This document shows, one piece after another, positions 4,444-37,831 of a stretch of 64,000 nt of DNA. Origin of the DNA: a virus. A program made the translations under genes and the position numbers. The notes under the pieces are model-generated. The model worked only from the letters and a program-made list of their open reading frames with translations. It was not told where the DNA came from and made no database searches. The stretch covers positions 58,977-122,976 of the IMG/VR virus record IMGVR_UViG_3300030419_004788, one strand, 5' to 3'. Position 1 is the stretch's first letter, and each line of letters begins with the position of its first letter.

Positions 4444-4473
4444 TTTTTATTCCTATAGAATCTCCATTTTTAT

Positions 4474-10242: not shown

Positions 10243-10287
10243 TGTGTTTCATTCCTTGTAGAAGTTTCCATAATATATTTATATCAA

Positions 10288-13551: not shown

Positions 13552-13552
13552 A

Positions 13553-21496: not shown

Positions 21497-23494
21497 CTAA
21501 GATGTTGTTACCTTACTAGGGTCTTGGCTACCCCACAAAATTTCAAAACTTATTACACTTTGTGTTGATGCTTGATTGTCACTTAAATCAATTGTTACTG
21601 GATTTCTAAATAGTGTTTTTGTTTTGGTAAAATCTATATCAGCATTTCCATTACTTTTTGGATGATAATAAACAGACTCCACATCCATTGACAATTTTGC
21701 GGCAATGTCATCAATGTTTGTAACTACACAAAGAGTTTTGCCTACTAAATCCTTTGCATAAGAAGTTTGAAGTGGAACTCTAACTGCTTTGTCGCTTATG
21801 TATTCTGCATCGTATGCAACAAGATTATTCAAAGTGGTGTTACTATATATTTTTTTATTCCCTGTTGTTACTAGTCGTTCACTGTTGTGCATTACATCTT
21901 TTGATTTTGGCAATGCTTCAAATCCACTCCCATCTGATTCAAAATTCCCCGATACTGGACCTACTGTAACCACAGGTACTAGAGATTTATAATTTGTAGC
22001 ATTTTTACCCAAACCACTATAAATTGACTGTCCTTCTTCATCTTTAAATTCTTGAATAGAATAAAAGTCAAATTCTTTAGGTCCAGGGCTATTTGTTGAA
22101 ATCCCCTCAAAAGTATCTGAAATATTTTTTGTATTTACCACTACATGTATTACTGTAGAAAGTTCCAAAATTTCATCAAGATGCATCGCTATGCCACCAA
22201 TAGGTGTTAAGTTAATTTTAACTCTATCATTAACATCTCCAGACCAATTTGGAAATATCTGACCCCATACATTTGTATCAACTACTGCTGATGTATATCC
22301 AGAACCTCTTTCGTGTTCTTTTGGTTTTCCAAAACCATCGATTATATGTCTTCCCCTTGCAGAATCATATACTGTAGAGATTGGAATAAATGCTTCTTTT
22401 TTAGTACTACCTGCTCTTATAGGAAGATATAATGTTCCATTTTTTATATTAGTATCATAAGTTTCGGTAGTAATCATCTTTTCTTCAATTGTCAAATTAC
22501 TCAAATCAATATTTGCAGACAATACAGAACCAGAAAGATTTTCTTTATGGTGATTAATTATTGTTGCATTTCTTCCTAATGCAGTATTTGATGTTATATT
22601 ATTGTCATTAATAACATTTATGTAGGAACTATTCTCATTCCAATCGATTGTACACCCGCAAGGACCACAGTCATCTGCTTTATTATCCTCAGAGTCACAT
22701 CCTTTACATGCAGGTCCAGTTGCACCTGTTCCACCAGTTGTTCCAGTTCCACCAAGAAACTTATGAAACACATATTTCATATTCAATGCTTCTGCCATCT
22801 CTACACATCTATAGCATTTAGAACATAGACATTTGTAGAACTCACCAGCGGCATATGTAATACCGGCGATGGAGTCATATCCAGACTCACTATAATATAA
22901 ACAGCAATTTCCTGTTTTTAGTTCATTGCCTGCACCACATATATTCATTGCTCTAGTTGACTCCGAAGTCGTTGAATTAACTTTTTCAAGCAAATCATCA
23001 AACAGTGCAACTTCCTGATATCTACTACTCATTTGGTCAAAAGAATCTGGCACAGCATTAATTGCCATGTATGATATTCCGTCTACAGTTTCTATCCCAC
23101 CATCAATTCTTGAAGGTTTATTTCTTGTAAGGATAGAACCCATCTTGTCTATTCTGTTTTGAATACCAGACATACCAACAACCATAAACAAAATTCCATC
23201 ACTAACAAATAGATGTTGTCCCTTAGAAGTTCCGTCAGAGTAATAGCAATGTGGCGCTAAACCAGTTGTCCAATACTTTGTTTCTGTCGCTCCAAATTGA
23301 ACAACTGTTTTTATATCGTTACTAGTAATTCTTTGTGCAAACATACTATTATCGTTAGTATCATTATTGCCCTCTGGGGAGTTGTTTATAATACTAGAAT
23401 CAGACCTACCAAGACAAAACGATAAATTTCGTTCTTTGAGTCCAGCACTCATGAGTATTGCTTGGTCGTTTCTTTTTCCTACTGATTGCGCCAT
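21497..23494 (-). CDS. gp8: Baseplate wedge subunit, T4 gp8-like (extended, with a Cys-rich insert)
   Basis: SFCLGRS...MFAQRITSNDI...WTTG motif; order gp25-gp6-gp7-gp8. Confidence 0.6.
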   Translation of the reverse strand: MAQSVGKRNDQAILMSAGLKERNLSFCLGRSDSSIINNSPEGNNDTNDNSMFAQRITSNDIKTVVQFGATETKYWTTGLAPHCYYSDGTSKGQHLFVSDGILFMVVGMSGIQNRIDKMGSILTRNKPSRIDGGIETVDGISYMAINAVPDSFDQMSSRYQEVALFDDLLEKVNSTTSESTRAMNICGAGNELKTGNCCLYYSESGYDSIAGITYAAGEFYKCLCSKCYRCVEMAEALNMKYVFHKFLGGTGTTGGTGATGPACKGCDSEDNKADDCGPCGCTIDWNENSSYINVINDNNITSNTALGRNATIINHHKENLSGSVLSANIDLSNLTIEEKMITTETYDTNIKNGTLYLPIRAGSTKKEAFIPISTVYDSARGRHIIDGFGKPKEHERGSGYTSAVVDTNVWGQIFPNWSGDVNDRVKINLTPIGGIAMHLDEILELSTVIHVVVNTKNISDTFEGISTNSPGPKEFDFYSIQEFKDEEGQSIYSGLGKNATNYKSLVPVVTVGPVSGNFESDGSGFEALPKSKDVMHNSERLVTTGNKKIYSNTTLNNLVAYDAEYISDKAVRVPLQTSYAKDLVGKTLCVVTNIDDIAAKLSMDVESVYYHPKSNGNADIDFTKTKTLFRNPVTIDLSDNQASTQSVISFEILWGSQDPSKVTTS

Positions 23495-24753: not shown

Positions 24754-26589
24754 TTAATTTCTTGCTACTAACGCAAAGTCCTCAAAAATTAAATTAGAAA
24801 AATACATATTTTCTTTTATTTCAAATTTATCAGAACCAATACCACCAGGCTTAACTTCCAAATCAATACTGTTGTCAGAGAAAATGTTTACCGTCACATT
24901 AACTTCTCCTGTTAGTGGTTTCCAATTTCCAACTGAATAAATGGTATCTCCAACGGAATTAACAACATATAACTTTTGAAATCCTTTTGAATCAAGATTA
25001 CCTTCTGAATATAGTTTTATTAACTCTCCGTCATCCAATCCCATTTCACCTTTGATATAAGAACTTGGTGTGAAAAATTCAGTTACCAGAGAACTTTCTT
25101 CGCATATATTTCTAAAGTGTTGTGTATCTATACCACCGTTAGTAACTGGACATGGTTTTCTTAATTTTAAAGAAAGTTCGTCAGAAGAAACACCAAAAGA
25201 AGAATCTATAGAATTTATAGTGGTTGATATCCAAGAAGTGTCAAATTTTTCTAATTCAAATCTGGATGAATATGTTTCTAAAAGTTTTTGTCTTACATAT
25301 CCCATTAATGTTTCTTGAGAATATTCTGTTTCTCCAGGATTGTATGTGCATTCACCAGAAACAACACCATTGACTGTTTCCAGATTCATAAATTCTGGAA
25401 TAATAGTGACACAAGTTTTCTCTTTTAAAATATTCATTGCAGTTGTAGATGCATATGGGTCTGTTGTAGTATCTAAAGAAACAAAAAGTCTTCCGTATCT
25501 TGGAGGTGTCATTGTTTCCCCACCCCACACATTAAATACAGAATAAGGGTCTTCAGAACCTGTTACAAATCCTGCTTCTGCAAGAATACCTCTACAGTCG
25601 TCCAAAGTAACTGCTCTATTTTGTGAAGCAAACCACTTTGGAGCAAAAAATCTAATTGCTTCTAAATCTGGTTTGTCCATACCACCGTTAGAAAGACCAT
25701 TACTAGGAGTAGAACTAGTGAGGGATACACTAGATGTACTTGCACCGTCAGGGGGATATGTTATATCTCTAATAGTAAAATTACCACAAGCATTTCCAAC
25801 AGAACCACTACTCTTTAAATATGAAACTCTTACTTGTTGATTTGGGGTAAGTTCTTTTCCTATTTTTTCGTAGGAAGAATCAAACCCACCACCAAACACT
25901 ACAAAGAATCCAAGTTCACTTCTTTCTAACCAATATACTTTACTTGTCTGATTTAATCCTGATTGTGTGTTAGTTGCTTGTGACCATTGTTCCCATCCCA
26001 CATCACTTCCATCAGTATTTTGTTCTGTGCTATACACTTCGATTCTAACTGTCGATATGTCTATATCTAAACCAAAAAGAAATGATTTATTTGTTACACT
26101 ATCTACAACTATTGGAGATTCTTTTACCAGAGCCTTTCCTTCTACAACAGTAAATGTATTTTCACCTTGACTGTCTAAAACCCCATCTTCAAGTGTATAG
26201 AAATTATATGCTATACCATTCGGAGAATTTCCAGTAAATCTTGTATATCTAGGAATAAGATATCCAGAACCATTGGCGCCATCACTAGACGAAACGGTTG
26301 CTAATCCTTTGGCAGAGGTTTTTCCTGGAACAACATAACCCAAAGGTTTTACAAGTGAAACTATAGATTGTTCTTTTTGTGCGGTGTCTAAAAACATTTC
26401 ATTAGCAGTCATGTTTGCATAATATCCATAATATAAAGTATTATATGCAAGCATATCTAAAAGAACTTGTGCAGCCGAACCATTATAATCATAATCTTTA
26501 ATATCGTTTTGTGTTTTAAGGTGTTCTATGATACTGGATTTAATAGATTCAAAATCAAGATTACCAAGTTGAATGTTTACATTACTCAT
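24754..26589 (-). CDS. gp6: Baseplate wedge subunit gp6
   Basis: LDFESIKSSI...DYDYNGSAAQVLLDMLAYNT...ANEMFLDTA; IRFFAPKWFASQNRAVTLDD. Confidence 0.9.
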   Translation of the reverse strand: MSNVNIQLGNLDFESIKSSIIEHLKTQNDIKDYDYNGSAAQVLLDMLAYNTLYYGYYANMTANEMFLDTAQKEQSIVSLVKPLGYVVPGKTSAKGLATVSSSDGANGSGYLIPRYTRFTGNSPNGIAYNFYTLEDGVLDSQGENTFTVVEGKALVKESPIVVDSVTNKSFLFGLDIDISTVRIEVYSTEQNTDGSDVGWEQWSQATNTQSGLNQTSKVYWLERSELGFFVVFGGGFDSSYEKIGKELTPNQQVRVSYLKSSGSVGNACGNFTIRDITYPPDGASTSSVSLTSSTPSNGLSNGGMDKPDLEAIRFFAPKWFASQNRAVTLDDCRGILAEAGFVTGSEDPYSVFNVWGGETMTPPRYGRLFVSLDTTTDPYASTTAMNILKEKTCVTIIPEFMNLETVNGVVSGECTYNPGETEYSQETLMGYVRQKLLETYSSRFELEKFDTSWISTTINSIDSSFGVSSDELSLKLRKPCPVTNGGIDTQHFRNICEESSLVTEFFTPSSYIKGEMGLDDGELIKLYSEGNLDSKGFQKLYVVNSVGDTIYSVGNWKPLTGEVNVTVNIFSDNSIDLEVKPGGIGSDKFEIKENMYFSNLIFEDFALVARN

Positions 26590-26590
26590 T

Positions 26591-27013
26591 TTATCTTACC
26601 TTCTGTACTGTTACTTCTAAAGTGTCTGTTAATTGTGTCCTTCTTCCTTTAAGAATACTATAATTGATTTTTATATTAAACTGATTTGCAGTTCCAGAAC
26701 TTCCTTCCTTTGCAACACTAGAATCTTCTTCTATAACAACAGAATCGATTCTTGCTCTGGGTTCTAATCTAGAAATTGCTCCAACTATATCTCTTTGTAA
26801 TTTTTTCTCTGTCAATGGAGTCCACAATTCAAACAAACGACTACGAAGACCTACACCAAAATCATCATTAAATCTTTTTTCTCCAGGAACGGTCAAAACT
26901 ATATTCATAATAGATTGACGAATAGCATCCCTATCTCTAACTATAGAGATATCATCGTTAAATGGATTTTTGTTTAAATCTATATCAAAATCTGTAAATT
27001 GAAAAGTTGACAT
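26591..27013 (-). CDS. gp25: Baseplate wedge subunit gp25
   Basis: DFDIDL...DAIRQSIMNIVLTVPGEKRFN..FG...LFE...EPR. Start re-set to MSTFQF at 27013 (AAGGA RBS; TATACATA at 27033-27040). Confidence 0.9.
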   Translation of the reverse strand: MSTFQFTDFDIDLNKNPFNDDISIVRDRDAIRQSIMNIVLTVPGEKRFNDDFGVGLRSRLFELWTPLTEKKLQRDIVGAISRLEPRARIDSVVIEEDSSVAKEGSSGTANQFNIKINYSILKGRRTQLTDTLEVTVQKVR

Positions 27014-27045: not shown

Positions 27046-27861
27046 TTAACCAGATATCCAATTCCAAATTTCACCAAAGAGTCCCAAATATTCACTTGTT
27101 TCTGGGTCGATTGGACTGCTATCCCTCACTAAAGTTATTAACATCTTATGTTGTCCTCCCCTTATAATATTATGATGAATTTCAGCAACTAACCATCTAC
27201 CACCCATTCTTCTTTCTTTATCCGAACCAACATTTTTATTTGTTATATTGATTAATTCGCCAGGTCTTAAAGTCAAATCGCCATTTAACATAATTACTGC
27301 TTGTTGTGACTTGATTAACATCATTTGTGCATCTCTCCAAAGAGGAGTGTATGTTGGAGTATCCCAATATGTTGCACTTGTTCTTGAATATTCAATATAT
27401 TTTTTAAAGTCTTCACCTACACATGGACAATTACAACTGCTAGGGTGGTTTTGGTCTTTCCATAAACATCCCATCCAAGATTCTCCAAGTAAAGGATTGT
27501 TTTCAATCAAATCACATTCTTTTATAGATTTTATAGATTCTATTATTTGTTCTTTTGTTGGTTCTTCATATGCACCACCCCCCAATAAAGAATTCAATAT
27601 ACCTTCTACAATACCAGTAGCAACACCAAAAGACCACCAAGGCAGGTCTATCAAATCATTTTCTTTGTATGGATTTAATTCTTGACATGGACAATTGCAA
27701 AGAGGATTATCATCAGAACAATCTGAATTATCCACAGGACCTTCTGGATTAGCACAGGGATAAGTATCATCAAATGCACCAACAGAATGTCCCAACTTGA
27801 CACTAGGCCATTCGGTATTAGCAAAGTGAGTGAGTTTTACTAGAAAGTCATGTTTTGCCAT
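27046..27861 (-). CDS. Protein carrying the C-terminal part of a gp27-like baseplate hub, 271 aa
   Basis: C-terminus I.LNGDLTLRPGELINI...GGRWLVAEIHH...MLITLVRDS is the typical hub C-terminal motif; own AGGAG RBS and TATAAATA at 27877-27884. Confidence 0.65.
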   Translation of the reverse strand: MAKHDFLVKLTHFANTEWPSVKLGHSVGAFDDTYPCANPEGPVDNSDCSDDNPLCNCPCQELNPYKENDLIDLPWWSFGVATGIVEGILNSLLGGGAYEEPTKEQIIESIKSIKECDLIENNPLLGESWMGCLWKDQNHPSSCNCPCVGEDFKKYIEYSRTSATYWDTPTYTPLWRDAQMMLIKSQQAVIMLNGDLTLRPGELINITNKNVGSDKERRMGGRWLVAEIHHNIIRGGQHKMLITLVRDSSPIDPETSEYLGLFGEIWNWISG

Positions 27862-27888
27862 ATATTTCTCCTAATCTATTTATACGAT

Positions 27889-30800
27889 TTATAGACATAC
27901 TATACCATTTCTTGTGTTTAAACAATTACATTCACACCCTGCATCGATGCATTCTTGTCGGCAATCTCTTTCTCCGTTAGAAGGCTCATCATAGTCATCG
28001 TCATCCGTTAGCCCGACTAGCGGGCTCCATCCACAACCGTTCTTCTGCTCCCAGTAGAAGTCACCACATTGACCCCAAGTGGAGTCATCGGGATTATACC
28101 AAGACCAATCACCATCAGAACCAGCACATTCGTTCAAACATACCTCCCCACTGAATTCCTGAACAAAGCAATCCCCGCAATAAACCCCACAACAATTTAT
28201 CATACAAGGAACTTGCGCGCATGAAACACAAGGACCTCTCCACGCAGGCCACCACATCCAACCATCATCAATGTCTGATTGATTCTGACATTCTGCCTGC
28301 GTGAGATAGTCTGTACAGCGTATATAGTCGTCATTCGATTGCTGCCAACAACAAGCACCCCTCCAAGTGCAAAAATCACTACAACTTGTACCCGAACCTT
28401 GGAAATCACCACCTAAAAGTTGACATTGAAGTAGACCAATTTCCATACAATGCCCACAGTTATCGAGGCAACATGCACCAATATCTACATCACAGTCAAA
28501 ATTACAATATTCACAACACGATTGGTTGTCAGGTATATAAGGCAACCAGTATCCATCATCAACTGCATCGCAATAAGGTTCTACACACCAGAAGTCACCA
28601 ATACATTCACACCCTCTGCATGGGTTTGGAATTCCCTGAATTTCACACGCCGTCATACTTGTTGCATCCTGATTGCAACATGTTCCTTTTGGATAAACAC
28701 ATTGATATTGTGCAAATCCTCCAGTATCACAAACAGAACCTACACCCAGAAAAACACCCGAATAATTTTTTATACAATCATCTTCAGTATATCCATCACC
28801 ACAATTACCAAAACAAGGACCAGGACTACAAAATTCATCAACATCAATACAACAAGCACCAGTTTGGTCTGGGTCACATATACTATTATTTGTATCGTAG
28901 CAAGTAGGGTCTGGGTAATCATCTGCTAAACAATCATACTCATTCCAAGAAATTCCAAGCAAGTCATCAAGACATTCATTTTCAAATGAGCAGTCTTTAC
29001 AGCAATAGTCATCCTTGCAATCATCATGACAACAATATCCAGGATTACAATTTGTATCTTCACACAATCGTCCTTGATTATAATATACTGTCTTTGTTCC
29101 ATTTTCGTCTTTGTCTTCACAGTCATCTTGACTTACAACATCTTCACACTGTCCTACACAAGTAATTGGTTTGCCAACTTTATCAAAACATTCAGAAATA
29201 CAACATGAGCCAAAGTCTAGACAATTTATTGATTCATCGACATTACAGTCTTCCCCACAAGCACAATCTTCACAAGAATGCCATACTACAGTTCCCTCGC
29301 ATTGTCCTTGCCCTGCGATATAAACTTCACATAACCAATTACTCATCATATCACAACTACTTAGACATTGACTTTGATTACCATCTATACAACAACAAGA
29401 ACCACAACAATCAACTTCATCACAAGATATTCCTTCATGGAAAGTATTGGTTGCTATTCCATCCTGTGGTCCTACACCCTTTAACATACATTCTTCATAT
29501 GAATTTGCATAGACACAACAACACCCAAACTCTCCAGTATTATCACATTCAGGACTTGCCCCAGCGTCCAAACCAATACAACATGCACCACCTTCACATT
29601 CACTTGTGTCGCATGGATTATTTTCACATTTATATCCTTCTTGCCAATCACCCTCATACTTATCACACCCTTGTTGTGTTATTGTGTCTATGCATTGTTG
29701 GCAAGTTTCTCCATAAGGAAAACAACATGCCCAACCTTCACTCGGTTCTTCGCATTCAGCATCTTGACAAGAAACTCCATCTCCCTGATAATAACCACCA
29801 CTACCCTCACATGCAAGTAGTGTAAGTTCTAGACAATTCCCCTCATCGTAACAACATGCACCTACTTCAAATTCACAAATACTACCATCACCGCATACTG
29901 TATCTGGACCTCGCCAAGACCCAGTTGAACTAACACAATCTGATTCAGTTAGTTCGTCAAAACATTCATCACTTTCTTCAAAACAACATGCACCAACTGG
30001 GTCACATATATTTTCATTATCCTCGCAAATAACATCTTCGTGAAAGTTTGCTTCTCCAGAATTTTTTACACATAAATGCTTTCTCACATTATTATTACAC
30101 CCATCATTAGGCCAATTACAACACACACCTGTAATATAACAAGCATCACAATTGCCTCCATCGGATTCATCCGCAGAGAGTGTCCACATATTTTCAACAT
30201 CCGATGGTTCATATCCATTCTCTTGTGCAATTCTACAACATTCATATTTGTATACTAAATTACCACCATCGAATCCTTTCCCTTCACTCAAACAACAATT
30301 AGGGTCTGTAAGACTATTTGCAGAACATCCCTCTGCTAAAGAACAACATAATTTTTTATCTTGTTCATCACAAGTAATATCTGCACATGTTAAATCACAA
30401 GAACCAATACCACTTGGATGAACTTCTTCTGGACCCCACCAAATTCCAGGCAATCTATTTCCGTTGTCATCTTCATACCCAAAACATTCCCAGACAGTAA
30501 CATCGTCTAGACACTCACCGTTTGGTAAACAACATGGTGCAGTTGGAAGACATGGATTTTCAGAAGTATAATTATCTGGGGCTTTGTTATCCCAATAACT
30601 ATCACTCTCTGTGCATGAATAATTTGGCATCTCACCATCAAGAAAATCATCACACATAAATCTCCAGAAATCACTATTGCAGGCTCTTAGTTTTAATGTT
30701 TCTGCATCGAGTTGAATTTCTGGATGTAAAGTTTCTTGCTCCCACCACCACATTGGAATCTGTGAATTGGTAGCACCCCAAACATTGGAATCATATACAA

Positions 30801-31980
30801 CAACAACTGCACCGTCACCATTAGGTTTCCATACAACCGTACACCCTTCACCGTTACAATGTCCAACTAGTCCTTCACCTTTTCCTTTTGGAAGGAGTCC
30901 ACTGCTAGAAGAACAATGAAACGAAAATGATTTTACTACTTCTTCATCTTGTTTTAGGAATGGTCTTTTTGACCTTTGACAACAAGAAATTGTTGGTGAT
31001 GTTCCATCTTCCCTTGCAAATGCTTCAAAATTATTGATATAGTTTTCATCTCTTTCTGAATCATAATATTCATCATTTCTGAATTCAAAGAATTCTTCTA
31101 TTTCTTCTTCATCATCTTGTCTTGCACAATGCAATGCAAAGTTTCTTAATAGTTCTGCCACTTCTTCACCAGATAAAGGCTCTGCATCGTCAACATCTAG
31201 ACACTTAGTAGTATAATAATTTGAATCATTAAAGAATCCTATCTTCTCTTTACATTCTATTGCTCCCGGACTTCCACTGGATTCTCCCATCACAATTAAT
31301 TTACCACCAGACTTAACCCACTCGCGAACTTCATCCCAATCACTTTCTGGTGGTGGGACAGTAACAATGTCAGAACCACATAACGGAAATTGGTCTGTGT
31401 TTGGATTTTGAGAACCAAAGTTCTTTCCGATAGCACCAACGAATGCCAATTTATGACAACCAAGATTACCTTCCGCACCAAGAGTACAGTGCATTGTACA
31501 ATCACCTTTTGGTAATAGTGGTCCTTCCCAATTGTCTATCCAATCTGTAAATGCTTGTGGTGACCATGGCAAAAGTCCCATAGGAGAATCGTATTGATAG
31601 AATGTAGATTTTGGAATAATCTTATCATGAAAAGAATACGATTCGTCATTGATGTATTCTGTCCAACAACTATTCCACTCCTCACCACACCCCAACGAAT
31701 AAAAGTCCCAACCTTCTTCTCCATTGTGCCAACACAAATTTCCATAATGTAAATTGTCTGGATGCCCATCACTTTCTTGCAGTCTACCATCCCATTCCTC
31801 ATCACCTTGATTTCGTGTAGGTTGATATGGAGCAAATTCTTCAAAGTCTGTTGCACTAATTGTAGTTGTACCCAATGCACATATGGGACAGTTTGCTCCT
31901 CCACCGTTATAACGATATTCGTTATCCCACTCTTTACAAGGTTTATCTCCGCAACAGCAACATGTTTTATATGTTCTCAT
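27889..31980 (-). CDS. Giant Cys-rich GACC-repeat protein with a GATase-like/DUF4350 (GIFT)-like domain, 1363 aa
   Basis: Begins MRTYKTCCCCGDKPC; EVREWVKSGGKLIVMGE...GAVVVVYDSNVW domain; more than 800 aa of GACC/GSCC repeats. Confidence 0.75.
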   Translation of the reverse strand: MRTYKTCCCCGDKPCKEWDNEYRYNGGGANCPICALGTTTISATDFEEFAPYQPTRNQGDEEWDGRLQESDGHPDNLHYGNLCWHNGEEGWDFYSLGCGEEWNSCWTEYINDESYSFHDKIIPKSTFYQYDSPMGLLPWSPQAFTDWIDNWEGPLLPKGDCTMHCTLGAEGNLGCHKLAFVGAIGKNFGSQNPNTDQFPLCGSDIVTVPPPESDWDEVREWVKSGGKLIVMGESSGSPGAIECKEKIGFFNDSNYYTTKCLDVDDAEPLSGEEVAELLRNFALHCARQDDEEEIEEFFEFRNDEYYDSERDENYINNFEAFAREDGTSPTISCCQRSKRPFLKQDEEVVKSFSFHCSSSSGLLPKGKGEGLVGHCNGEGCTVVWKPNGDGAVVVVYDSNVWGATNSQIPMWWWEQETLHPEIQLDAETLKLRACNSDFWRFMCDDFLDGEMPNYSCTESDSYWDNKAPDNYTSENPCLPTAPCCLPNGECLDDVTVWECFGYEDDNGNRLPGIWWGPEEVHPSGIGSCDLTCADITCDEQDKKLCCSLAEGCSANSLTDPNCCLSEGKGFDGGNLVYKYECCRIAQENGYEPSDVENMWTLSADESDGGNCDACYITGVCCNWPNDGCNNNVRKHLCVKNSGEANFHEDVICEDNENICDPVGACCFEESDECFDELTESDCVSSTGSWRGPDTVCGDGSICEFEVGACCYDEGNCLELTLLACEGSGGYYQGDGVSCQDAECEEPSEGWACCFPYGETCQQCIDTITQQGCDKYEGDWQEGYKCENNPCDTSECEGGACCIGLDAGASPECDNTGEFGCCCVYANSYEECMLKGVGPQDGIATNTFHEGISCDEVDCCGSCCCIDGNQSQCLSSCDMMSNWLCEVYIAGQGQCEGTVVWHSCEDCACGEDCNVDESINCLDFGSCCISECFDKVGKPITCVGQCEDVVSQDDCEDKDENGTKTVYYNQGRLCEDTNCNPGYCCHDDCKDDYCCKDCSFENECLDDLLGISWNEYDCLADDYPDPTCYDTNNSICDPDQTGACCIDVDEFCSPGPCFGNCGDGYTEDDCIKNYSGVFLGVGSVCDTGGFAQYQCVYPKGTCCNQDATSMTACEIQGIPNPCRGCECIGDFWCVEPYCDAVDDGYWLPYIPDNQSCCEYCNFDCDVDIGACCLDNCGHCMEIGLLQCQLLGGDFQGSGTSCSDFCTWRGACCWQQSNDDYIRCTDYLTQAECQNQSDIDDGWMWWPAWRGPCVSCAQVPCMINCCGVYCGDCFVQEFSGEVCLNECAGSDGDWSWYNPDDSTWGQCGDFYWEQKNGCGWSPLVGLTDDDDYDEPSNGERDCRQECIDAGCECNCLNTRNGIVCL

Positions 31981-31996
31981 AATATAAGTATACTAA

Positions 31997-34168
31997 TTAA
32001 GAAAGACACCCGCACAATCCATCGTGTGCATTTGGAACATCGAAGAAATATATGTCTTTCGGAATAGTTGGGTCTGGGTCACCCAATGGGTCTTCTTCGT
32101 TTGGAGCAATTGTTCCCTTTACAACTTCTCCGTCTTCATTTAATTCTCCTAGCATATAATTAGGAATTCTATACATTTGTACAATATGGCGTTGCATGGT
32201 CCAAGGTCCATCCATTATATCGTTCTCGTTACTTTGTAAATCGCATGGGTCGTCCAATATATCAGCATCATCTGCAACTTGAAAATATCCACCTACTGGC
32301 ATCATTTGATATGATTCGGGATAATCATTATATTCTAAATCAGCAACATTAATACCAGGACCAACATTAACATTAGTACCGTCTGTTGTGTTCATTAATT
32401 CGTTTAAGTTATAAGCAGGGTTTGTCCATTCCTCACCTTCTGGGTTTGCTCCTCTAAATGTTCCTGCTAGACCTTGACCTTCAGGCGGTATAACAATTTT
32501 TACTGGTGAACCTTCTGGACTAATGTCTGTACCTATATAGTTTTCCTCGTCCACATGGTCACTAGGCCATATCTCAACTTCTCTCCAAGAATATTCGTAG
32601 ATTCCGCCCCTGTCATCTGGTGTAACCTTTTTTGCATCTTCAATAACTGCAAGAAACACAAAAGGTTTAATAGTTTGTTTATCACAACAAATCGAGTGTC
32701 TGTACACATTAAACTTTTCTTTAAGGTTTATTAATTGTAAATGTTCTTTAAAGTTTTCAGATGTTGGGACTTTAACATCTTCTTGAATAGTTTTTATTAT
32801 TTTACCCTCAAGGTTTGTTTGGTCGAACATTGTTTGCCAAAGAATATCATTTCTTTTTCCTTGTTTTCCTTCTAGTGCGGCAGAACCGAGAAAATCATAA
32901 GACTTATCCCCGTAGTAATTATATGGAGAATCAAAATATCCATACAGCCCAGTATGGTCATGTTTCCTCACTGACTTTCTTTCTATGTTTACTGGATTGT
33001 CAATGTTTATAGAAGTGTCCACACTTTCAGGTATAATTTTAAATCTTTCAACTCGTCCACCGTCCTCATTGTCCCCCCAATTTTCTTCTACATCTCGATG
33101 GTAATCATATGTAATAATTTCTCTACCACCCCAATCAGTTGATAGCGGATGCGTATGCATTGTAGTGAAATCTAAATAATCAAAATATGGGTCATTATAA
33201 TTTGGTTTAATTCTTTCATAATATGCTGTATATGCACCACTCTTAAAAAGATTCAAATGGTCATATTCACTGATAGTTATCATTGCACCAATTCTTCTGT
33301 CGGGTTCTCCTTCTTGCATTTTTTCCCAATCTTCTTCATCAGTAATTGCATATTCATTTTTTCCGCCATGGTCCCCACCAAGTAATACACCCTTTTCGTT
33401 AGCATCTAAAATCATTTTCCTAATAGACTTAAAATGCCATCCATCTAAATCCGCATAGAATAAATAATTTGCACCTTTCATGTCTTCATCAATGGAATTT
33501 TCTGAAAGGTTATTGAGAAGTTGCATAAGATTTGGTGGATGAACATCCTTACCCCAAGGATACATACTTTGATTCTTTTTCAACCATATCCAGTTGTGTG
33601 TAGGGTCGATTTCCATTTCCTTTTGGGCAAAACTAAAATCACTTACTCCAGGATTTAAATATTTCCCTGCTAACTCATTTACTAAACCATCATCGCCAGC
33701 AATTTTACCAATAAAATCTTTATCCATATAATCTAGATTATCCCAATCTAAGATATAACTTTCACAAGATACAAATTCCACTTCCCATCCTGCTCCAGGT
33801 CTAGCACTTGGTCCAGATGTTGCTTCTAATGCATCATCACCAAGTGGTCTTACATCATTCACACAAAAAGTTAATTCATGTCTTGAATCTTCTATCAGTG
33901 GAGATTCTATCACAATGTCAATAAATTCGTTACCTGTCATGTTGAAATAGTCACCAACAGAAGAAGGTTCTTTGAATTTTAAAGTTCCACTTATACCACT
34001 CGAAAATATACTTTCATTTATCTGTAGACTGACAAAGATTTCTTCCATCACACCATCTTGTACTTCAGCGGGTAAAACTTTAAGTTCTGTTTCACTTCTT
34101 ACATTTCGTAAAACTATCTTTTCGACATTAATATCTGATGATGTTTGTTTTTCGTTGTCTGGGGGCAT
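31997..34168 (-). CDS. gp27-like baseplate hub, N-terminal part plus an appended domain, 723 aa
   Basis: LQINESIFSSGISGTLKFKE...MTGNEFIDIVIESP and YLFYADLDGWHFKSI hub motifs; follows gp53; ends YFFDVPNAHDGLCGCLS without the hub C-terminal motif. Confidence 0.7.
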   Translation of the reverse strand: MPPDNEKQTSSDINVEKIVLRNVRSETELKVLPAEVQDGVMEEIFVSLQINESIFSSGISGTLKFKEPSSVGDYFNMTGNEFIDIVIESPLIEDSRHELTFCVNDVRPLGDDALEATSGPSARPGAGWEVEFVSCESYILDWDNLDYMDKDFIGKIAGDDGLVNELAGKYLNPGVSDFSFAQKEMEIDPTHNWIWLKKNQSMYPWGKDVHPPNLMQLLNNLSENSIDEDMKGANYLFYADLDGWHFKSIRKMILDANEKGVLLGGDHGGKNEYAITDEEDWEKMQEGEPDRRIGAMITISEYDHLNLFKSGAYTAYYERIKPNYNDPYFDYLDFTTMHTHPLSTDWGGREIITYDYHRDVEENWGDNEDGGRVERFKIIPESVDTSINIDNPVNIERKSVRKHDHTGLYGYFDSPYNYYGDKSYDFLGSAALEGKQGKRNDILWQTMFDQTNLEGKIIKTIQEDVKVPTSENFKEHLQLINLKEKFNVYRHSICCDKQTIKPFVFLAVIEDAKKVTPDDRGGIYEYSWREVEIWPSDHVDEENYIGTDISPEGSPVKIVIPPEGQGLAGTFRGANPEGEEWTNPAYNLNELMNTTDGTNVNVGPGINVADLEYNDYPESYQMMPVGGYFQVADDADILDDPCDLQSNENDIMDGPWTMQRHIVQMYRIPNYMLGELNEDGEVVKGTIAPNEEDPLGDPDPTIPKDIYFFDVPNAHDGLCGCLS

Positions 34169-34190: not shown

Positions 34191-35195
34191 TTACGAGTAA
34201 GTTATAATTTTGGTAGTACCTCTAGGAACATTTCCTTTTAATAGTGTGGTTATTTCTGAGGATACTTGTCCTGCTAAGTTTGGAGATAATAGTTTAATTG
34301 TTCTACTTCTATCATTATCATATACAATTTCTTCTTCAACGGTAACTATAGAAACTGCTTCTGGTAATGATGCTCCTGTCATATATTTATAGAGTAAAGT
34401 TCCAGTCAAGCCACACATATTACGGAATTGAAAATAATCAGCAGTTAGTCCATCATTGGTATAGGGATTTAAATCATTTACTAATTCTCCAGTTCTGTAT
34501 GAAAATCTAGAAACTGCTTCTTTGATAGAAGTTTTCTTTTGTACCTTTGCAAATGTTGCACCTGCGGTTGCACACAATGGAGCGGCATCTGAATCAGGAG
34601 CAGTAAATACAGTACAACCTGTAGCAGTCACATTTTGTCTAAAGCATCCTGTTTCACCAAATCCTTCTGTTAATGGGTTTGTCCACTGTCCTTGTCCGTC
34701 TAATCCAAATGCACATATTTCATCTCCTGTAGAAATAGTTCCTTTCTTTTGTTTCACATCTATCCTATGAAAAATTTTATCATATGAGTCTACTACTCCA
34801 AAATGGTCTATATCAATCCCTCCAGTTTTAGTTGTATCTCTTTTGACTACTATATCTCCAGGACCGATGACTAAATCTTCTAATACAAAATAACTATCTC
34901 CATTTAAAAAGTTATTAAATAATGATTTTATTTGAGATTGAGATTTAGGCCATTCTGTTTGTACATCAACTATATTATTTGACAATAAAACTAACCACCA
35001 ATAATTTGAACTCCCATAAAAAATTCTTGCAACATCATCTGGTCTTGCTCCTTCTGGAACTAAAAACTCCTCAAAGTTTTTAGCATCTGCAAGGGTTTTA
35101 TCTGTAAATTTTACCCTACTAAATATGTCCTGCATTTCCAATTCTGGAATACCAGGAAAATTGTAATTTAACTGTTGCATCTTTTCAAAATACAT
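34191..35195 (-). CDS. gp53: Baseplate wedge protein gp53 (LysM-like)
   Basis: MYFEKMQQLNY...GARPDDVARIFYGSSNYWWLVLLSNNIVD; start re-set to 35195. Confidence 0.85.
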   Translation of the reverse strand: MYFEKMQQLNYNFPGIPELEMQDIFSRVKFTDKTLADAKNFEEFLVPEGARPDDVARIFYGSSNYWWLVLLSNNIVDVQTEWPKSQSQIKSLFNNFLNGDSYFVLEDLVIGPGDIVVKRDTTKTGGIDIDHFGVVDSYDKIFHRIDVKQKKGTISTGDEICAFGLDGQGQWTNPLTEGFGETGCFRQNVTATGCTVFTAPDSDAAPLCATAGATFAKVQKKTSIKEAVSRFSYRTGELVNDLNPYTNDGLTADYFQFRNMCGLTGTLLYKYMTGASLPEAVSIVTVEEEIVYDNDRSRTIKLLSPNLAGQVSSEITTLLKGNVPRGTTKIITYS

Positions 35196-35197
35196 TA

Positions 35198-36016
35198 TTA
35201 ATCTCCACCTCTGGCAGCACCACTTCGCAACTGACTTCTTGATTGTATAAATGCTCCAGTATTGATTGCTGGTTCTAGTTCTTGGAATTGCAAGGTAAGT
35301 CCTGTAGCGGCAGGCCATCCACCAGAAACTCTATGTAATGAACCTTGTGCTGTAGTAACTTTTACATTTGCTAATACACTTGGTAATGGCTCCATGTCCC
35401 ATCTGACTCCTTGACCTTCTGAAAAGTCAAAAGCAGAAATGTGCCACACAGGAGGATGAATAACTCTTGAGTATTGTTCATATCCAGATGCCATAGGAAA
35501 TGCTAATGCTTGAAATGCCATGACAATATCATGAATCTTTTGTCCTTGTTCAGAATTTTTTGGTATCAGTGTCCAAGAATAACTATGATTTCTAAAGTTC
35601 GCACCTTGAAATATACTATCTCTTTCATCCATTGGTCTTTGTCCATAAAGAGCAGAAAACCCTAACATATCCTTTGCCCAAGAAACAGCACCAAATCCAG
35701 TTTTAAGTGATTCCCACCAACCACCAGGCGTCATGTCCCACAAACCACCAGTAGTTTCCGATTGTCCAGTACCATAATTTATTGCATTGTCCACTCCAAC
35801 ATTTAAAGGCAAAGGTAAAGTTATATCAGCAAATTTACCAACACCAGCATTTTCTCTAATTGCTTGTTTGTTTGTATATGGGTCTGCCAAAAAATTAATA
35901 CTTACTGGAATTTTTAATCCATTATTTGAGGGGTCTGCGCCAAAATCTTCTTCACTTGGAAATGTTAATTCTCCGTGACTAAAATCCGTTCCCATACCAT
36001 GAAATTCTTCTGCCAT
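35198..36016 (-). CDS. gp48: Baseplate tail-tube cap gp48-like
   Basis: ITLPLP...YG; FQGANFRNHSYSWTLIPKNSEQGQKIHDIVMAF; LQFQELEP. Confidence 0.8.
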   Translation of the reverse strand: MAEEFHGMGTDFSHGELTFPSEEDFGADPSNNGLKIPVSINFLADPYTNKQAIRENAGVGKFADITLPLPLNVGVDNAINYGTGQSETTGGLWDMTPGGWWESLKTGFGAVSWAKDMLGFSALYGQRPMDERDSIFQGANFRNHSYSWTLIPKNSEQGQKIHDIVMAFQALAFPMASGYEQYSRVIHPPVWHISAFDFSEGQGVRWDMEPLPSVLANVKVTTAQGSLHRVSGGWPAATGLTLQFQELEPAINTGAFIQSRSQLRSGAARGGD

Positions 36017-36063: not shown

Positions 36064-36498
36064 ATGGCATATAAAACAAAATATAAAACAATAAATCCAT
36101 CAAAATATATAGGAAACCCAACAAACATAATATGCCGCTCTCTGTGGGAAAGGAGAGTGTGTAAATACCTAGACTATAACAAAAATGTTATTAGGTGGGG
36201 CAGTGAAGAAGTAATAATCCCATATTATTCTCCAGTGGACAAGAAGAATCATAGATACTTTCCAGATTTCATCGCAGAAATAAAAACCAATGATGGTGAT
36301 ATAAAAACCTATATCATAGAGGTTAAACCCAAAAAGCAAACTATCCCACCACCAAAGAAAAAGAAATCAACTAGGTCATATATTAAAGAATGTTTAACCT
36401 ATAGTGTAAACGAAGCAAAATGGAAATCTGCTAAAAAATATTGTAAACAAAAAGGCTGGAATTTTATTATTTTGACAGAAGATACCATATTACCTTAA
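36064..36498 (+). CDS. gp4: Head completion protein gp4 (TnsA-like nuclease fold)
   Basis: MAYKTKY...NPSKYIGNPTNIICRSLWERRVCKYLD...WGSEE..IPY.SPVD...HRYFPDF...IEVKP. Confidence 0.9.
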   Translation: MAYKTKYKTINPSKYIGNPTNIICRSLWERRVCKYLDYNKNVIRWGSEEVIIPYYSPVDKKNHRYFPDFIAEIKTNDGDIKTYIIEVKPKKQTIPPPKKKKSTRSYIKECLTYSVNEAKWKSAKKYCKQKGWNFIILTEDTILP

Positions 36499-36530
36499 AT
36501 TTGTTATAAATATTATAGAGAAAAATAAAC

Positions 36531-37088
36531 ATGGCAAACGAAGCATCAATAGATTATTTCAAAGAAAACTTTCTTAAATACGGATTAGCAAAACCCTCTA
36601 GATATAGGGTTGAATTTGCTAATGTGCAAGATGGTGGTCGTTCTCAATCAAGGCAGGATATTATGCCGGCAGAAACAGTCACCCTACCCACAAGAAGTTT
36701 TATTGTACTTGATGAACAATGGTTTGGTCCAAAAAGAGATATTCCTGTTGGTAACAATTATGCTGGAGATGTAGTTATTTCGTTTCCTGTATCTGCTGAC
36801 CAAACAGAAAGAACATTCTTTGAGGGTTGGATGGACGAAATAGTTCCACCGCATATGGGGGTAGCAGGTGGTGATGGTGAACAACATAATTGGTTGAGTA
36901 CCATTGCAAGCAGTACAACTATGAAGATAAAAACACTCAATGAATTAAATGAAGTAACTTCAACCTACACCCTACACGAAGCCTACCCCAACAATATATT
37001 TCCTATATCGTTGGGAGCAAGTATGTTTAATGATTATACAAGATTACAAGTTTCGTTTAGATATAGGTCTTATACCTATGAGATATAA
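36531..37088 (+). CDS. Tail tube gp19/gp54-like protein
   Basis: GLAKPSRYRVEF...AETVTLP...FFEGWMDEI...YTLHEAYP...LQVSFRYR; TATAAATA at 36505-36512. Confidence 0.8.
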   Translation: MANEASIDYFKENFLKYGLAKPSRYRVEFANVQDGGRSQSRQDIMPAETVTLPTRSFIVLDEQWFGPKRDIPVGNNYAGDVVISFPVSADQTERTFFEGWMDEIVPPHMGVAGGDGEQHNWLSTIASSTTMKIKTLNELNEVTSTYTLHEAYPNNIFPISLGASMFNDYTRLQVSFRYRSYTYEI

Positions 37089-37111
37089 ATATAATAAAAG
37101 TGAGGTAAATA

Positions 37112-37831
37112 ATGAACAAATTGTCAAATTTATTATTGTCAGACATTCCAAAATATGAAGTAATTCTTCCATCATCTGGTGATAGAAAATCTTTTAGACC
37201 ATTTTTAGTAAAAGAAGAAAAAATACTCCTTCTTGCTCAACAATCTGGCGAAGATTCTTCTATGATTAGAGCAATAAAAAATATTATTGAATCGTGTGTA
37301 GATGGTGTAGAAGATGCAGGGTCATTGCCACTATTTGATGTAGAGTACATATTCCTACAAATAAGAGCAAAATCTGTTGGTGAAGGAATCGAACCAACAA
37401 TTGTATGTCCTGTTACAGAAGAAAACATACAAGTAAAGATACTAATACCAGATATAGAAATAATAAAAGATAAAAACCACACAAACGAAATAAAAATAAG
37501 CAAAGAAATTATACTTAAAATGAGATATCCGTCATTAAATGATTTAGATAACAGGGATGGAGTTATTAATTATGAAGACCCTTCTTCTTTCTATGATTTA
37601 ATTTCTGATTGTATAGTTTCTATACAAACAACTAGTGGAATAGTCGATGCTTCGACTTTACCAAGAGAGGAAATATTAGAATTTGTTGACAATATGACAA
37701 AAACTCAATTTGAAAAGTTATTGGATTTCTTTTTAACCGCTCCTAAAATAGAACATAAAGTTTTATATACTGCTTCTGATGATGTTGAAAGAGAGGTGTT
37801 GCTCTCTGGGTTATCGGATTTTTTCGGCTAG
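37112..37831 (+). CDS. gp26: Baseplate hub assembly protein gp26
   Basis: PKYEVILPSSG...FRPFLVKEEKILLLA...LPLFDVEYIFLQIRAKSVGE...LKMRYPS...GLSDFF; TATAAATA at 37084-37091. Confidence 0.9.
   Translation: MNKLSNLLLSDIPKYEVILPSSGDRKSFRPFLVKEEKILLLAQQSGEDSSMIRAIKNIIESCVDGVEDAGSLPLFDVEYIFLQIRAKSVGEGIEPTIVCPVTEENIQVKILIPDIEIIKDKNHTNEIKISKEIILKMRYPSLNDLDNRDGVINYEDPSSFYDLISDCIVSIQTTSGIVDASTLPREEILEFVDNMTKTQFEKLLDFFLTAPKIEHKVLYTASDDVEREVLLSGLSDFFG

What the first reader, a model, noticed from the sequence alone, without database searches (positions are those of the whole stretch)
27046..34168. Baseplate hub apparently split in two around a 4.1 kb Cys-rich gene; no gp5 spike at its usual site
Seen: hub N-terminal motifs are in the 723 aa ORF, which ends in an unrelated domain (...NAHDGLCGCLS). 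The hub C-terminal motif (GDLTLRPG...GRWLV..IHH...LVRDS) is in a separate 271 aa ORF with its own TATAAATA and AGGAG. The 1363 aa GACC protein lies between them, and gp25 follows directly. Known: in T4-like phages the order is typically gp53, hub, gp5 spike/lysozyme, (PAAR), gp25. Inference: a remodelled puncturing device with a two-piece hub, in which a Cys-rich protein may occupy or decorate the spike position. This could be an adaptation to the unusual planctomycete envelope.
Basis: partly seen in the sequence, partly recalled or inferred. Interest (0 to 1): 0.8.

Follow-up and report, generated by a model that had tools for sequence, protein, structure and literature searches.

The report
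Phage baseplate hub encoded in pieces
An uncultured marine T4-like phage builds the central hub of its tail tip from two separate proteins that complete one fold, with a giant cysteine-rich protein gene between them and no recognisable needle gene, and a whole clade of ocean phages shares this hub as one, two or three genes.

Summary
On the minus strand the order is gp48, gp53, a 723 aa ORF, a 1363 aa ORF with 11.4% Cys, a 271 aa ORF, gp25, gp6.

- **Split hub.** The hub profile phrog_350 is the unsplit 445 aa hub of Pelagibacter phage HTVC008M. It is divided between the 723 aa ORF (profile positions 31-275) and the 271 aa ORF (349-435). Predicted folds agree. The 723 aa protein matches T4 gp27 residues 4-235. 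The 271 aa protein matches gp27 296-359, the rest of the second ring barrel.
- **Relatives.** Some encode both parts in one 1450-2160 aa protein with a large insert at this one site. Others use two genes. At least 26 non-redundant loci use three or more.
- **Conserved junction.** In the loci with a gene in between, the N-piece ends in HDGLCxC and the middle protein starts with CCCxC. Fused forms lack both motifs.
- **No needle found.** No gp5, gpV or PAAR profile hits this 68%-complete genome. No gp5 profile hits an 87%-complete relative.

The two-piece hub is well supported (about 0.9). Attachment of the Cys-rich protein to the hub in place of the spike is inferred (about 0.5). The planctomycete host idea was not tested. 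I class this as a new variant of a known kind. The same stretch was also noted from an overlapping window of this genome.

The parts
35198..36016 (-). gp48-like baseplate tail tube cap, the upstream synteny anchor
   Evidence: phrog_230 8.3e-16. Conserved upstream of gp53 in relatives and in HTVC008M.
34191..35195 (-). gp53 baseplate wedge subunit. The likely start is the ATG at 35195, giving 334 aa as in relatives.
   Evidence: PF11246 3.5e-08 and phrog_232 3.5e-29. Homology begins at residue 42 of the longest ORF.
31997..34168 (-). Hub N-piece (P0001, 723 aa). It holds ring barrel 1, domain 2, the first strands of ring barrel 2 and further hub parts (about residues 1-450), then a long helix (455-492), then a conserved beta-rich C-terminal domain (501-723).
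   Evidence: phrog_350 positions 31-96 and 173-275. Model residues 6-297 align to T4 gp27 4-235 with Z 13.2, and Foldseek gives E 2e-6 to 1e-3 against gp27, Mu gp44, VgrG and the P1 hub. Forty-five homologues were found, most of them full length.
32006..32026 (-). C-terminal HDGLCGC motif of the hub N-piece (residues 715-721)
   Evidence: H715, G717 and C719 are invariant in A2 and A3. The motif is present in 25 of 26 non-redundant loci that have a gene between the hub pieces and absent from fused forms.
27889..31980 (-). Middle protein (P0003, 1363 aa, 11.4% Cys). It has an N-terminal CCCC..C / CPxC cluster (residues 7-34), a conserved N-domain (about 1-620) and a variable array of GACC six-cysteine beads (about 630-1363).
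   Evidence: Translation. The family has a conserved N-domain from residue 1, a variable Cys-rich C-part and lengths of 785-2368 aa, and is never fused to the hub pieces. Bead similarity to the fibre ORFs at 1-16699 reaches BLAST 4e-6. There is no Pfam, PHROG or NCBIfam hit.
27877..27884 (-). TATAAATA, a T4 late-promoter-like box ahead of the hub C-piece. AGGAG lies at 27868-27872.
   Evidence: Read directly from the sequence. TATAAATA lies within 70 nt upstream of the hub C-piece in 9 of 26 related loci.
27046..27861 (-). Hub C-piece (P0002, 271 aa). It has an N-terminal helix (1-25) and a region with two C..CNCPC motifs (about 30-160), followed by the hub C-terminal beta segment.
   Evidence: phrog_350 positions 349-435 at 3.6e-09. 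Eighty-three homologues, most with full coverage. Invariant Cys are listed. In fused relatives the same region (profile positions about 25-258) is the C-terminus of 1445-2118 aa proteins.
27112..27342 (-). Hub C-terminal beta segment (P0002 residues 174-250), which completes the second ring barrel
   Evidence: It aligns to T4 gp27 296-359 (Z 5.5, rmsd 2.0 over 64 residues), P1 hub 272-335 of 335 (Z 5.9, rmsd 1.7), pyocin R2 hub 258-325 and Mu gp44 263-335. In gp27 the second barrel is residues 207-239 plus 307-368 (PMC3004832).
26591..27013 (-). gp25 baseplate wedge / sheath initiator, directly downstream (likely ATG at 27013)
   Evidence: PF04965 1.7e-12 and phrog_261 1.6e-31. Junction sequence.
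24754..26589 (-). gp6 baseplate wedge, the downstream synteny anchor, used for the tree
   Evidence: phrog_219 1.6e-84. It is 28% identical to cyanophage gp6. Tree.

Best explanation
The phage's central baseplate hub is a gp27 / Mu gp44-type protein of the phrog_350 family. It is assembled from two polypeptides that complete one fold.

The 723 aa protein supplies the first ring barrel, domain 2 and the first strands of the second ring barrel. The 271 aa protein supplies the remaining strands of that second barrel. The two must therefore co-fold by strand complementation to give the pseudo-sixfold ring that continues the tail tube.

The break lies at the family's single insertion hot spot. That spot is at phrog_350 positions about 333-341 and corresponds to where T4 gp27 carries its inserted domain (residues 240-306). 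Relatives fill this site with an 800-1400 aa module within one chain, or cut the gene there into two, three or four ORFs.

The Cys-rich 1363 aa protein encoded at the break is most likely a hub-borne appendage, in three copies per virion. I infer that its N-terminal CCCC..C / CPxC cluster is clasped to the HDGLCxC end of the hub N-piece, by a shared metal site or by disulfides. Its conserved N-domain would be the anchor. Its variable GACC-bead array would be a distal central fibre or adhesin on the spike side of the hub, where related phages have gp5.

Shown: the split, the fold complementarity, the fused relatives and the motif pairing. Inferred: physical attachment, stoichiometry, location and replacement of the spike.
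For: - **Profile complementarity.** phrog_350 positions 31-275 fall in P0001 and 349-435 in P0002. phrog_350 matches the unsplit 445 aa hub of HTVC008M over its full length.
- **Fold complementarity on the same chains**. P0001 matches T4 gp27 4-235 and P0002 matches 296-359. On the P1 hub the ranges are 15-259 and 272-335. On the pyocin R2 hub they are 1-246 and 258-325. On diffocin they are 1-248 and 258-312. The gp27 barrel boundaries come from PMC3004832.
- **Fused relatives.** Twenty representative proteins of 1445-2118 aa carry the P0001 N-part at their start and the P0002 part at their end. In these, phrog_350 breaks at about position 333/341.
- **Synteny.** The order gp48, gp53, hub module, gp25, gp6 is conserved, with the hub module as one, two or three or more genes. 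All ORFs are intact down to about 40% identity.
- **Junction motifs.** The HDGLCxC tail occurs in 25 of 26 non-redundant loci. A CCC head occurs in 23 of 26 by the script. It is also present on the first ORF after the hub N-piece in L041 and L045, which makes 25 of 26. Both motifs are absent from fused forms. L078 departs in both partners.
- **Coupling.** The gap from the N-piece stop to the start of the next ORF is -1 to 21 nt, with no Shine-Dalgarno sequence in the window.
- **Fibre-like architecture.** The P0003 family has a conserved N-domain and a variable Cys-rich distal part, as tail fibres do.
- **No needle found.** There is no match to PF06714, PF06715, PF04717, PF05488, phrog_430 or phrog_1922 in the genome. 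There is no phrog_430 match in an 87%-complete relative with a fused hub, nor in four smaller relatives.
Against: - No complex was modelled or observed, so attachment of P0003 to the hub rests on genomic and motif evidence alone.
- The P0002 fold matches are weak (Z 5-6) and cover only about 65 residues. Both models have mean pLDDT 64.
- Middle proteins differ widely between loci (264-2745 aa, several unrelated families). The insert of fused hubs shows no similarity to the P0001 C-terminal domain or to the P0003 N-domain. The three-gene form is therefore not a simple cut of the fused form.
- The genome is only about 68% complete, so a divergent gp5 or PAAR could lie elsewhere or escape the profiles.
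- The hub C-piece has its own late-promoter-like box in the window and in 8 of the 25 related loci checked (9 of 26 in all), which argues against obligatory co-expression.
- The position of the insert relative to the tail axis is inferred from T4 gp27, not shown.
Confidence: 0.6

Rival explanations
1. The hub is truly split and reassembles from its two pieces. The gene in between, however, is only a passenger. It would be a fibre or adhesin gene that landed in a permissive spot of the hub gene, and its product attaches elsewhere on the baseplate or not to the hub at all. A conventional spike would be encoded elsewhere.
For: - Middle genes vary greatly in size and family (264-2745 aa). Some loci have two middle ORFs or an extra small ORF.
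- The fused-hub insert is unrelated to them.
- The hub C-piece has its own TATAAATA and AGGAG.
- P0003 shares its beads with the four fibre genes at 1-16699.
- The genome is 68% complete.
Against: - The HDGLCxC tail and the CCC head co-occur in nearly all of the 26 loci, whichever middle-protein family is present. They vanish together in fused forms and depart together in L078.
- The gaps from the hub N-piece stop to the next ORF are -1 to 21 nt, with no ribosome-binding site in the window.
- The position is conserved across two well-supported clades.
- No gp5 was found in an 87%-complete relative.
Confidence: 0.28
2. The 723 aa protein is a VgrG-like hub-spike fusion. Its long helix and C-terminal beta domain would form the needle, with the HDGLCxC end as a metal-binding tip. 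The N-terminal Cys cluster of the middle protein would cap it as PAAR caps gp5 or VgrG, carrying the bead array as an extension.
For: - No separate gp5, gpV or PAAR was found.
- A 38-residue helix followed by a beta-rich domain comes after the hub part.
- A His/Cys motif sits at the extreme C-terminus next to a Cys cluster at the extreme N-terminus of the next protein.
- The ESM Atlas structure rows for residues 501-723 list VgrG clusters first.
Against: - The Atlas match is weak (TM 0.34/0.16) and rests on a poor model.
- The PDB profile search with the C-terminal domain found nothing, and the fold searches did not cover that domain.
- In VgrG the spike follows a complete hub, whereas here the chain would have to leave the hub before its last barrel strands.
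- Fused relatives lack this C-terminal domain entirely.
Confidence: 0.1
3. There is no split. The 271 aa protein is an independent small baseplate or tube-related protein that merely resembles a tube-like barrel, or the break is an assembly error, a pseudogene, or an intein- or intron-type interruption.
For: - The C-terminal fold also aligns, at similar Z, to first-barrel regions of hubs and to a tail tube protein.
- P0001 ends in CLS, the three residues that often open an intein (from my own knowledge).
Against: - The profile match is to the last 87 positions of the same hub family.
- Twenty representative proteins join the two parts in one chain.
- The break is conserved with intact ORFs in at least 26 independent loci.
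- Three in-frame stops and a separate ribosome-binding site are present.
- No intein, Hint or homing-endonuclease domain appears in any of the three ORFs, and only three residues follow the Cys.
Confidence: 0.02

Closest known systems
Unsplit hub ('tail protein', phrog_350) of Kyanoviridae and other non-Tevenvirinae T4-like phages, e.g. Pelagibacter phage HTVC008M gp029 (445 aa)
   Same: It is the same protein family (phrog_350) and sits in the same place after gp48 and gp53. An unsplit 436 aa relative of this type (P0278) has matches in 835 phage records.
   Different: There it is one chain of about 440 aa with almost no Cys, followed by a gp5 spike-lysozyme gene. Here it is cut at profile position about 333/341. 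The pieces carry an extra helix, a C-terminal domain and Cys-motif regions. A 4.1 kb gene lies in the cut, and no gp5 follows.
T4 gp27 (PDB 1k28, 2z6b) and Mu gp44 (1wru) hub trimers
   Same: The fold is shared. P0001 residues 6-297 match gp27 4-235 (Z 13.2), and P0002 174-246 matches gp27 296-359 and Mu gp44 263-335. In gp27 the second ring barrel is also discontinuous in sequence (207-239 plus 307-368), with a domain inserted between the two stretches (PMC3004832).
   Different: In gp27 and gp44 both halves of the barrel lie in one polypeptide and the inserted domain has about 65 residues. Here the two halves lie in different polypeptides, and the inserted material runs from hundreds to more than a thousand residues or is a separate protein.
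Hubs with extra domains, e.g. Anabaena myophage A-1(L) hub (PDB 8kea, 878 aa; PMC10966104), and VgrG hub-spike fusions
   Same: They show that hub proteins tolerate large added domains. P0001 and P0002 align to residues 1-640 and 646-714 of the A-1(L) chain. VgrG and T4 show that hub and spike can be fused or separate.
   Different: Those are single chains. The known fission or fusion point (gp27 | gp5) lies after a complete hub, not inside its second barrel. My four literature searches turned up no report of a hub split within the barrel, though they could not be exhaustive.
GACC six-cysteine-bead fibre proteins of the same phage
   Same: The C-terminal 730 residues of P0003 carry the same bead type (nine G[AS]CC repeats) and give BLAST 4e-6 to those ORFs.
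   Different: P0003 lacks their collagen-like start. It has its own conserved 600 aa N-domain with a terminal Cys cluster, and it is encoded inside the hub module rather than in the fibre array.

Membership tests
gp27 / Mu gp44 / phrog_350 baseplate hub | Sequence-profile match over the whole hub family model | tested here: met
   Met only by the two ORFs together: phrog_350 positions 31-96 and 173-275 in P0001 (1.9e-16) and 349-435 in P0002 (3.6e-09). The same model covers HTVC008M gp029 at positions 8-433.
gp27 / Mu gp44 / phrog_350 baseplate hub | First tube-like barrel plus domain 2 fold | tested here: met
   P0001 model residues 6-297 align to T4 gp27 4-235 (Z 13.2, rmsd 3.4, 221 aligned). 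Foldseek probability is 1.00 against gp27, Mu gp44, VgrG and the P1 hub.
gp27 / Mu gp44 / phrog_350 baseplate hub | Second tube-like barrel complete within the same polypeptide | tested here: not met
   The last barrel segment lies in a separate ORF. P0002 174-246 matches gp27 296-359, P1 hub 272-335 and pyocin hub 258-325. P0001 covers only the earlier parts of those same chains. Three stops and a 4.1 kb gene separate the ORFs.
gp27 / Mu gp44 / phrog_350 baseplate hub | Genomic place in the hub/wedge module of T4-like phages (after gp48 and gp53) | tested here: met
   The window order is gp48, gp53, hub pieces, gp25, gp6. HTVC008M has gp48, gp53, hub. The order is conserved in the related loci.
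gp27 / Mu gp44 / phrog_350 baseplate hub | Trimer forming a pseudo-sixfold ring under the tail tube | not testable with these tools
   No multimer prediction was available. This needs co-folding or cryo-EM.
gp5 / gpV / VgrG-type central spike (OB-fold plus beta-helix) | Profile match to the OB-fold or beta-helix repeat in any ORF of the genome | tested here: inconclusive
   No match to PF06714, PF06715, PF04717, phrog_430 or phrog_1922 in the 123 kb record, which is 68% complete. No phrog_430 match in five related records, one of them 87% complete. Divergent spikes could escape these profiles.
PAAR spike-tip protein | PAAR_motif profile match | tested here: inconclusive
   PF05488 finds nothing in the genome. 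The Cys cluster at the start of P0003 is not a PAAR motif by sequence.
Intein-, intron- or homing-endonuclease-interrupted gene | Hint/intein blocks or an endonuclease ORF at the break | tested here: not met
   No such Pfam, PHROG or NCBIfam domain occurs in the three ORFs. Only CLS follows the last Cys of P0001. The intervening ORF is a bead-repeat structural-type protein.
GACC six-cysteine bead proteins of this phage | Repeated GACC..C..C..G.(F/W/Y).G..C..C beads | tested here: met
   Nine G[AS]CC repeats lie in P0003 residues 663-1208. BLAST gives 4e-6 to 3e-5 against the ORFs at 1-4443, 4474-10242 and 13553-16699.

The most novel reading that the evidence does not exclude
In this clade of ocean myoviruses the gp5-PAAR needle has been given up. 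A hub-borne module grown out of the hub's internal insertion site replaces it. In the split form, a cysteine/histidine clasp, either metal-bound or disulfide-linked, would join the end of the hub N-piece to the start of an exchangeable giant bead protein. That would make a swappable central fibre or spike, and the hub ring itself would be closed by a second polypeptide. This would be a new way to build and diversify the cell-contacting tip of a contractile tail.
Probability: 0.3. Interest if true: 0.85.

Novelty: new variant of a known kind. Interest (0 to 1): 0.66.

Why it matters
The hub is the most conserved and most constrained part of contractile tails, tailocins and type VI secretion spikes, and it has been treated as a single-chain trimer.

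This finding shows a large, widespread group of marine phages in which the hub tolerates insertions of 800-1400 residues at one site. In many of them its ring barrel is closed by a second gene product. That gives three things:
- a natural test case for split-barrel assembly;
- a mapped permissive site for engineering hubs of phages, tailocins and injection systems;
- a candidate new solution for the cell-puncturing tip in phages that lack a recognisable needle.

It also means that routine annotation misses the hub in these genomes, because neither piece reaches any Pfam threshold.

Tried and rejected
- **Read-through.** The 1363 aa and 271 aa ORFs share a frame, but TAA, TAA and TAG lie between them, so read-through is rejected.
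- **Frameshift fusion of the 723 aa and 1363 aa ORFs.** The gaps vary from -1 to 21 nt among relatives, with no conserved slippery site. I did not pursue this further.
- **Intein or intron split.** No such domains were found.
- **Cultured-phage relatives.** tblastn of P0001 and P0002 against 50,697 phage records found nothing.
- **PDB sequence-profile searches.** Alignments A1, A2 and A3 gave nothing meaningful.
- **Domain libraries.** Pfam and NCBIfam found nothing for P0001 and P0003. Pfam found nothing in the inserts of six fused hubs or in eight middle proteins of other loci. PHROGs named only phrog_350 (and, in one, the related tail family phrog_24827) in five fused hubs.
- **A simple cut of the fused form.** BLAST, hmmsearch and hhalign found no similarity between fused-hub inserts and the P0001 C-terminal domain or the P0003 N-domain.
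- **ESM Atlas.** The P0003 N-domain scored below 0.9. For the P0001 C-terminal domain, VgrG rows came first but only at TM 0.34 on a poor model. These are leads only.
- **Foldseek on the whole P0002 model.** Nothing reached E <= 0.001. Only VIA-align with trimming gave consistent hub C-terminal matches.
- **Direction of evolution.** On the gp6 tree the fused forms fall in three basal clades, but the backbone is unresolved and the outgroup branch is long. I make no claim about which form is ancestral.
Full report
**What is there**

The window is the right half of a 122,976 bp uncultured virus record, estimated 68% complete. By gp6 it is a distant T4-like phage, 28% identical to cyanophage gp6. 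On the minus strand the ORFs run in this order:
- a gp48-like tube cap (35198-36016);
- gp53 (34191-35195);
- a 723 aa ORF (31997-34168, P0001);
- a 1363 aa ORF (27889-31980, P0003);
- a 271 aa ORF (27046-27861, P0002);
- gp25 (26591-27013);
- gp6 and a gp7-like wedge protein.

P0003 and P0002 share a frame, but TAA, TAA and TAG lie between them. TATAAATA and AGGAG precede the P0002 start codon. P0003 starts 16 nt after the P0001 stop and has no Shine-Dalgarno sequence.

**The hub is split**

Neither piece reaches a Pfam threshold. The PHROG family phrog_350 has 436 positions and is named only 'tail protein'. It matches P0001 at positions 31-96 and 173-275, and P0002 at positions 349-435. This family is the unsplit 445 aa protein that follows gp48 and gp53 in Pelagibacter phage HTVC008M, where a gp5 spike-lysozyme gene lies just downstream. 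An unsplit 436 aa relative (P0278) finds matches in 835 phage records, including cyanophages, Pelagibacter, Methylophilales, Vibrio, Rhizobium and Salmonella phages.

AlphaFold models built on alignments of homologues have mean pLDDT 64 for both proteins. Their fold matches are complementary on the same solved chains:

| Solved hub | P0001 covers | P0002 covers |
|---|---|---|
| T4 gp27 | 4-235 (model 6-297, Z 13.2) | 296-359 (model 174-246, Z 5.5, rmsd 2.0) |
| P1 hub | 15-259 | 272-335 of 335 |
| Pyocin R2 hub | 1-246 | 258-325 |
| Diffocin hub | 1-248 | 258-312 |
| Mu gp44 | 3-249 | 263-335 |

The T4 tail review states that the two homologous ring barrels of gp27 are residues 2-111 and residues 207-239 plus 307-368 (PMC3004832). 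P0001 therefore carries barrel 1, domain 2 and the opening strands of barrel 2. P0002 carries the closing strands of barrel 2. The cut falls where gp27 has its inserted domain (240-306). The P0002 matches are weak taken singly, but they consistently fall at the same C-terminal segment of hubs.

**Relatives join the pieces**

I searched a profile of the P0002 family against 1.84 billion representative proteins and then ran my own hmmsearch. This gave 20 proteins of 1445-2118 aa. Each has the P0001 N-part (profile positions 1 to about 500 of 699) at its start and the P0002 part (profile positions about 25-258) at its end. In these proteins phrog_350 stops at about position 333 and resumes at about 341. 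That marks one insertion site holding 790-1400 residues. The search also found unsplit hubs of 420-450 aa that match both profiles.

I fetched 80 related viral loci and annotated them with home-made profiles. The order gp48, gp53, hub module, gp25, gp6, gp7-like, 665 aa ORF is conserved. The hub module comes in several forms:
- one fused gene of 1457-2162 aa;
- two genes, adjacent or overlapping (975-1029 aa plus 303-311 aa, and others);
- three genes, as in the window, in at least 26 non-redundant loci;
- in the three-gene class, L041 and L045 have the middle gene in two ORFs, and L040 and L046 have an extra small ORF.

Both pieces are conserved at full length down to about 40% identity. Pseudogenes and assembly errors are therefore excluded.

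On a gp6 tree the three-gene loci form two well-supported clades. Fused forms fall in three separate basal clades. At least four changes of architecture are needed. The backbone is unresolved and the outgroup branch is long, so I do not say which state is ancestral.

**The break is not a simple cut**

The inserts of the 20 fused hubs are all related to one another. They show no similarity to the C-terminal domain of P0001 (residues 501-723) or to the N-domain of P0003, whether by BLAST, HMM or profile-profile comparison. The elements shared by fused and split forms are the hub N-part, a long helix (P0001 455-492), the region with two C..CNCPC motifs (P0002 about 30-160) and the closing barrel strands. 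Specific to split forms are the P0001 C-terminal domain, the first 25 residues of P0002, and the separate middle protein.

**The middle protein**

The P0003 family comprises 26 proteins of 785-2368 aa. It has a conserved N-domain of about 600 residues starting at residue 1 and a variable C-part with 7-13% Cys in nearly all members. It is never fused to either hub piece. One member carries a VWA domain. In P0003 the C-part holds nine GACC beads of the kind found in the four giant fibre ORFs at 1-16699. I did not test that link.

Across the 26 non-redundant loci that have a gene between the hub pieces, the middle proteins belong to several families and range from 264 to 2745 aa. Even so, 25 of the hub N-pieces end in [HV]DG.C..C within a few residues of the stop. 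The first ORF after the N-piece starts with M..(R/K).CCC.C in 23 loci by the script, and in 25 once L041 and L045 are read correctly. In the P0003 family this is followed by CPxCA.G. Fused forms have neither motif. L078 departs in both partners.

These points make a physical junction between the P0001 tail and the middle protein's head the most economical reading. The junction could be a shared metal site or disulfides. This is inference and nothing here shows it.

**No needle found**

The following profiles find nothing in the 123 kb record:
- Gp5_OB and Gp5_C;
- Phage_base_V;
- PAAR_motif;
- the gp5 families of Kyanoviridae, phrog_430 and phrog_1922.

phrog_430 also finds nothing in a 157 kb, 87%-complete relative with a fused hub, or in four smaller relatives. 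The hub module is tightly packed, with no small ORF that could be a PAAR. Other hub genes are nearby: gp26 (phrog_150, 37112-37831) and a tube-like protein. Absence from incomplete genomes and from profile searches is not proof. It does fit the idea that the module at the hub's insertion site takes over the role of the spike. In gp27 the inserted domain lies in the part of the cylinder that holds the gp5 N-terminal domains. That rests on my own knowledge plus PMC3004832, and I did not test its transfer to this hub.

**Verdict**

The two-piece hub is well supported (about 0.9). The Cys-rich protein as a hub-borne central appendage replacing gp5 is plausible (about 0.5). A VgrG-like reading of the P0001 C-terminal domain remains a weak lead. 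I found no paper describing a hub split inside its barrel. Hubs with added domains, such as A-1(L), are known. I class this as a new variant of a known kind that is widespread in marine viromes.

Noticed in passing
L056, L064, L065, L071-L073 (e.g. L064:6838-10837): In the two-gene form, the long hub N-piece (975-1029 aa, Cys-rich between about residues 500 and 900) and the hub C-piece (303-311 aa) overlap by 8 nt. I did not look for a frameshift signal that could make a fused product.
   Followed up: no
L041:6479-9567 and L045:6094-9242: The middle gene is itself in two ORFs: the conserved N-domain alone (491-498 aa, starting with the CCC motif), then a separate 536-549 aa protein with 17.5% Cys. 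L040 and L046 also have an extra 157-158 aa ORF just before the hub C-piece.
   Followed up: partly
L028:7141-7935, L029:7034-7918; protein P0296: The short middle proteins (264-294 aa) start with the CCC motif and carry a MIDAS-like DxSGS string (LSLDYSGSM), but have no Pfam hit. One P0003-family member (P0296) has a clear VWA domain (PF00092, 1.2e-16). This hints at adhesin-type heads on the same anchor.
   Followed up: partly
Fused hubs P0140-P0185 (20 proteins), residues about 450-1900: The 790-1400 aa inserts of fused hubs form one conserved family (all-against-all BLAST below 1e-5). The family has no Pfam or PHROG name and no similarity to the split-form modules.
   Followed up: partly
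window 38060-39241, 40640-42064, 42072-43985, 21497-23494, 16716-18038: These ORFs of 393, 474, 637, 665 and 440 aa lie beside the hub and wedge genes and have no PHROG hit. They are candidates for gp51, gp29 tape measure, gp28 or unknown baseplate parts, and any divergent spike would have to be among them. The 665 aa ORF is conserved after the gp7-like gene in the related loci that reach that far.
   Followed up: partly
window 27046-27861 (P0002 residues 30-160): Two similar motifs, C..C..CNCPC and GC..SCNCPC, have nine conserved Cys. They lie in the part of the hub C-piece that fused hubs also carry. A similar GC(E/D)C(N/H)CL string ends P0003 and its close orthologues.
   Followed up: no
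window 36064-37831: The plus-strand neighbours are head closure gp4 (phrog_218, 2e-56), a tube-like protein (phrog_45) and baseplate hub gp26 (phrog_150, 1.6e-60). This is the same local order as in HTVC008M.
   Followed up: partly
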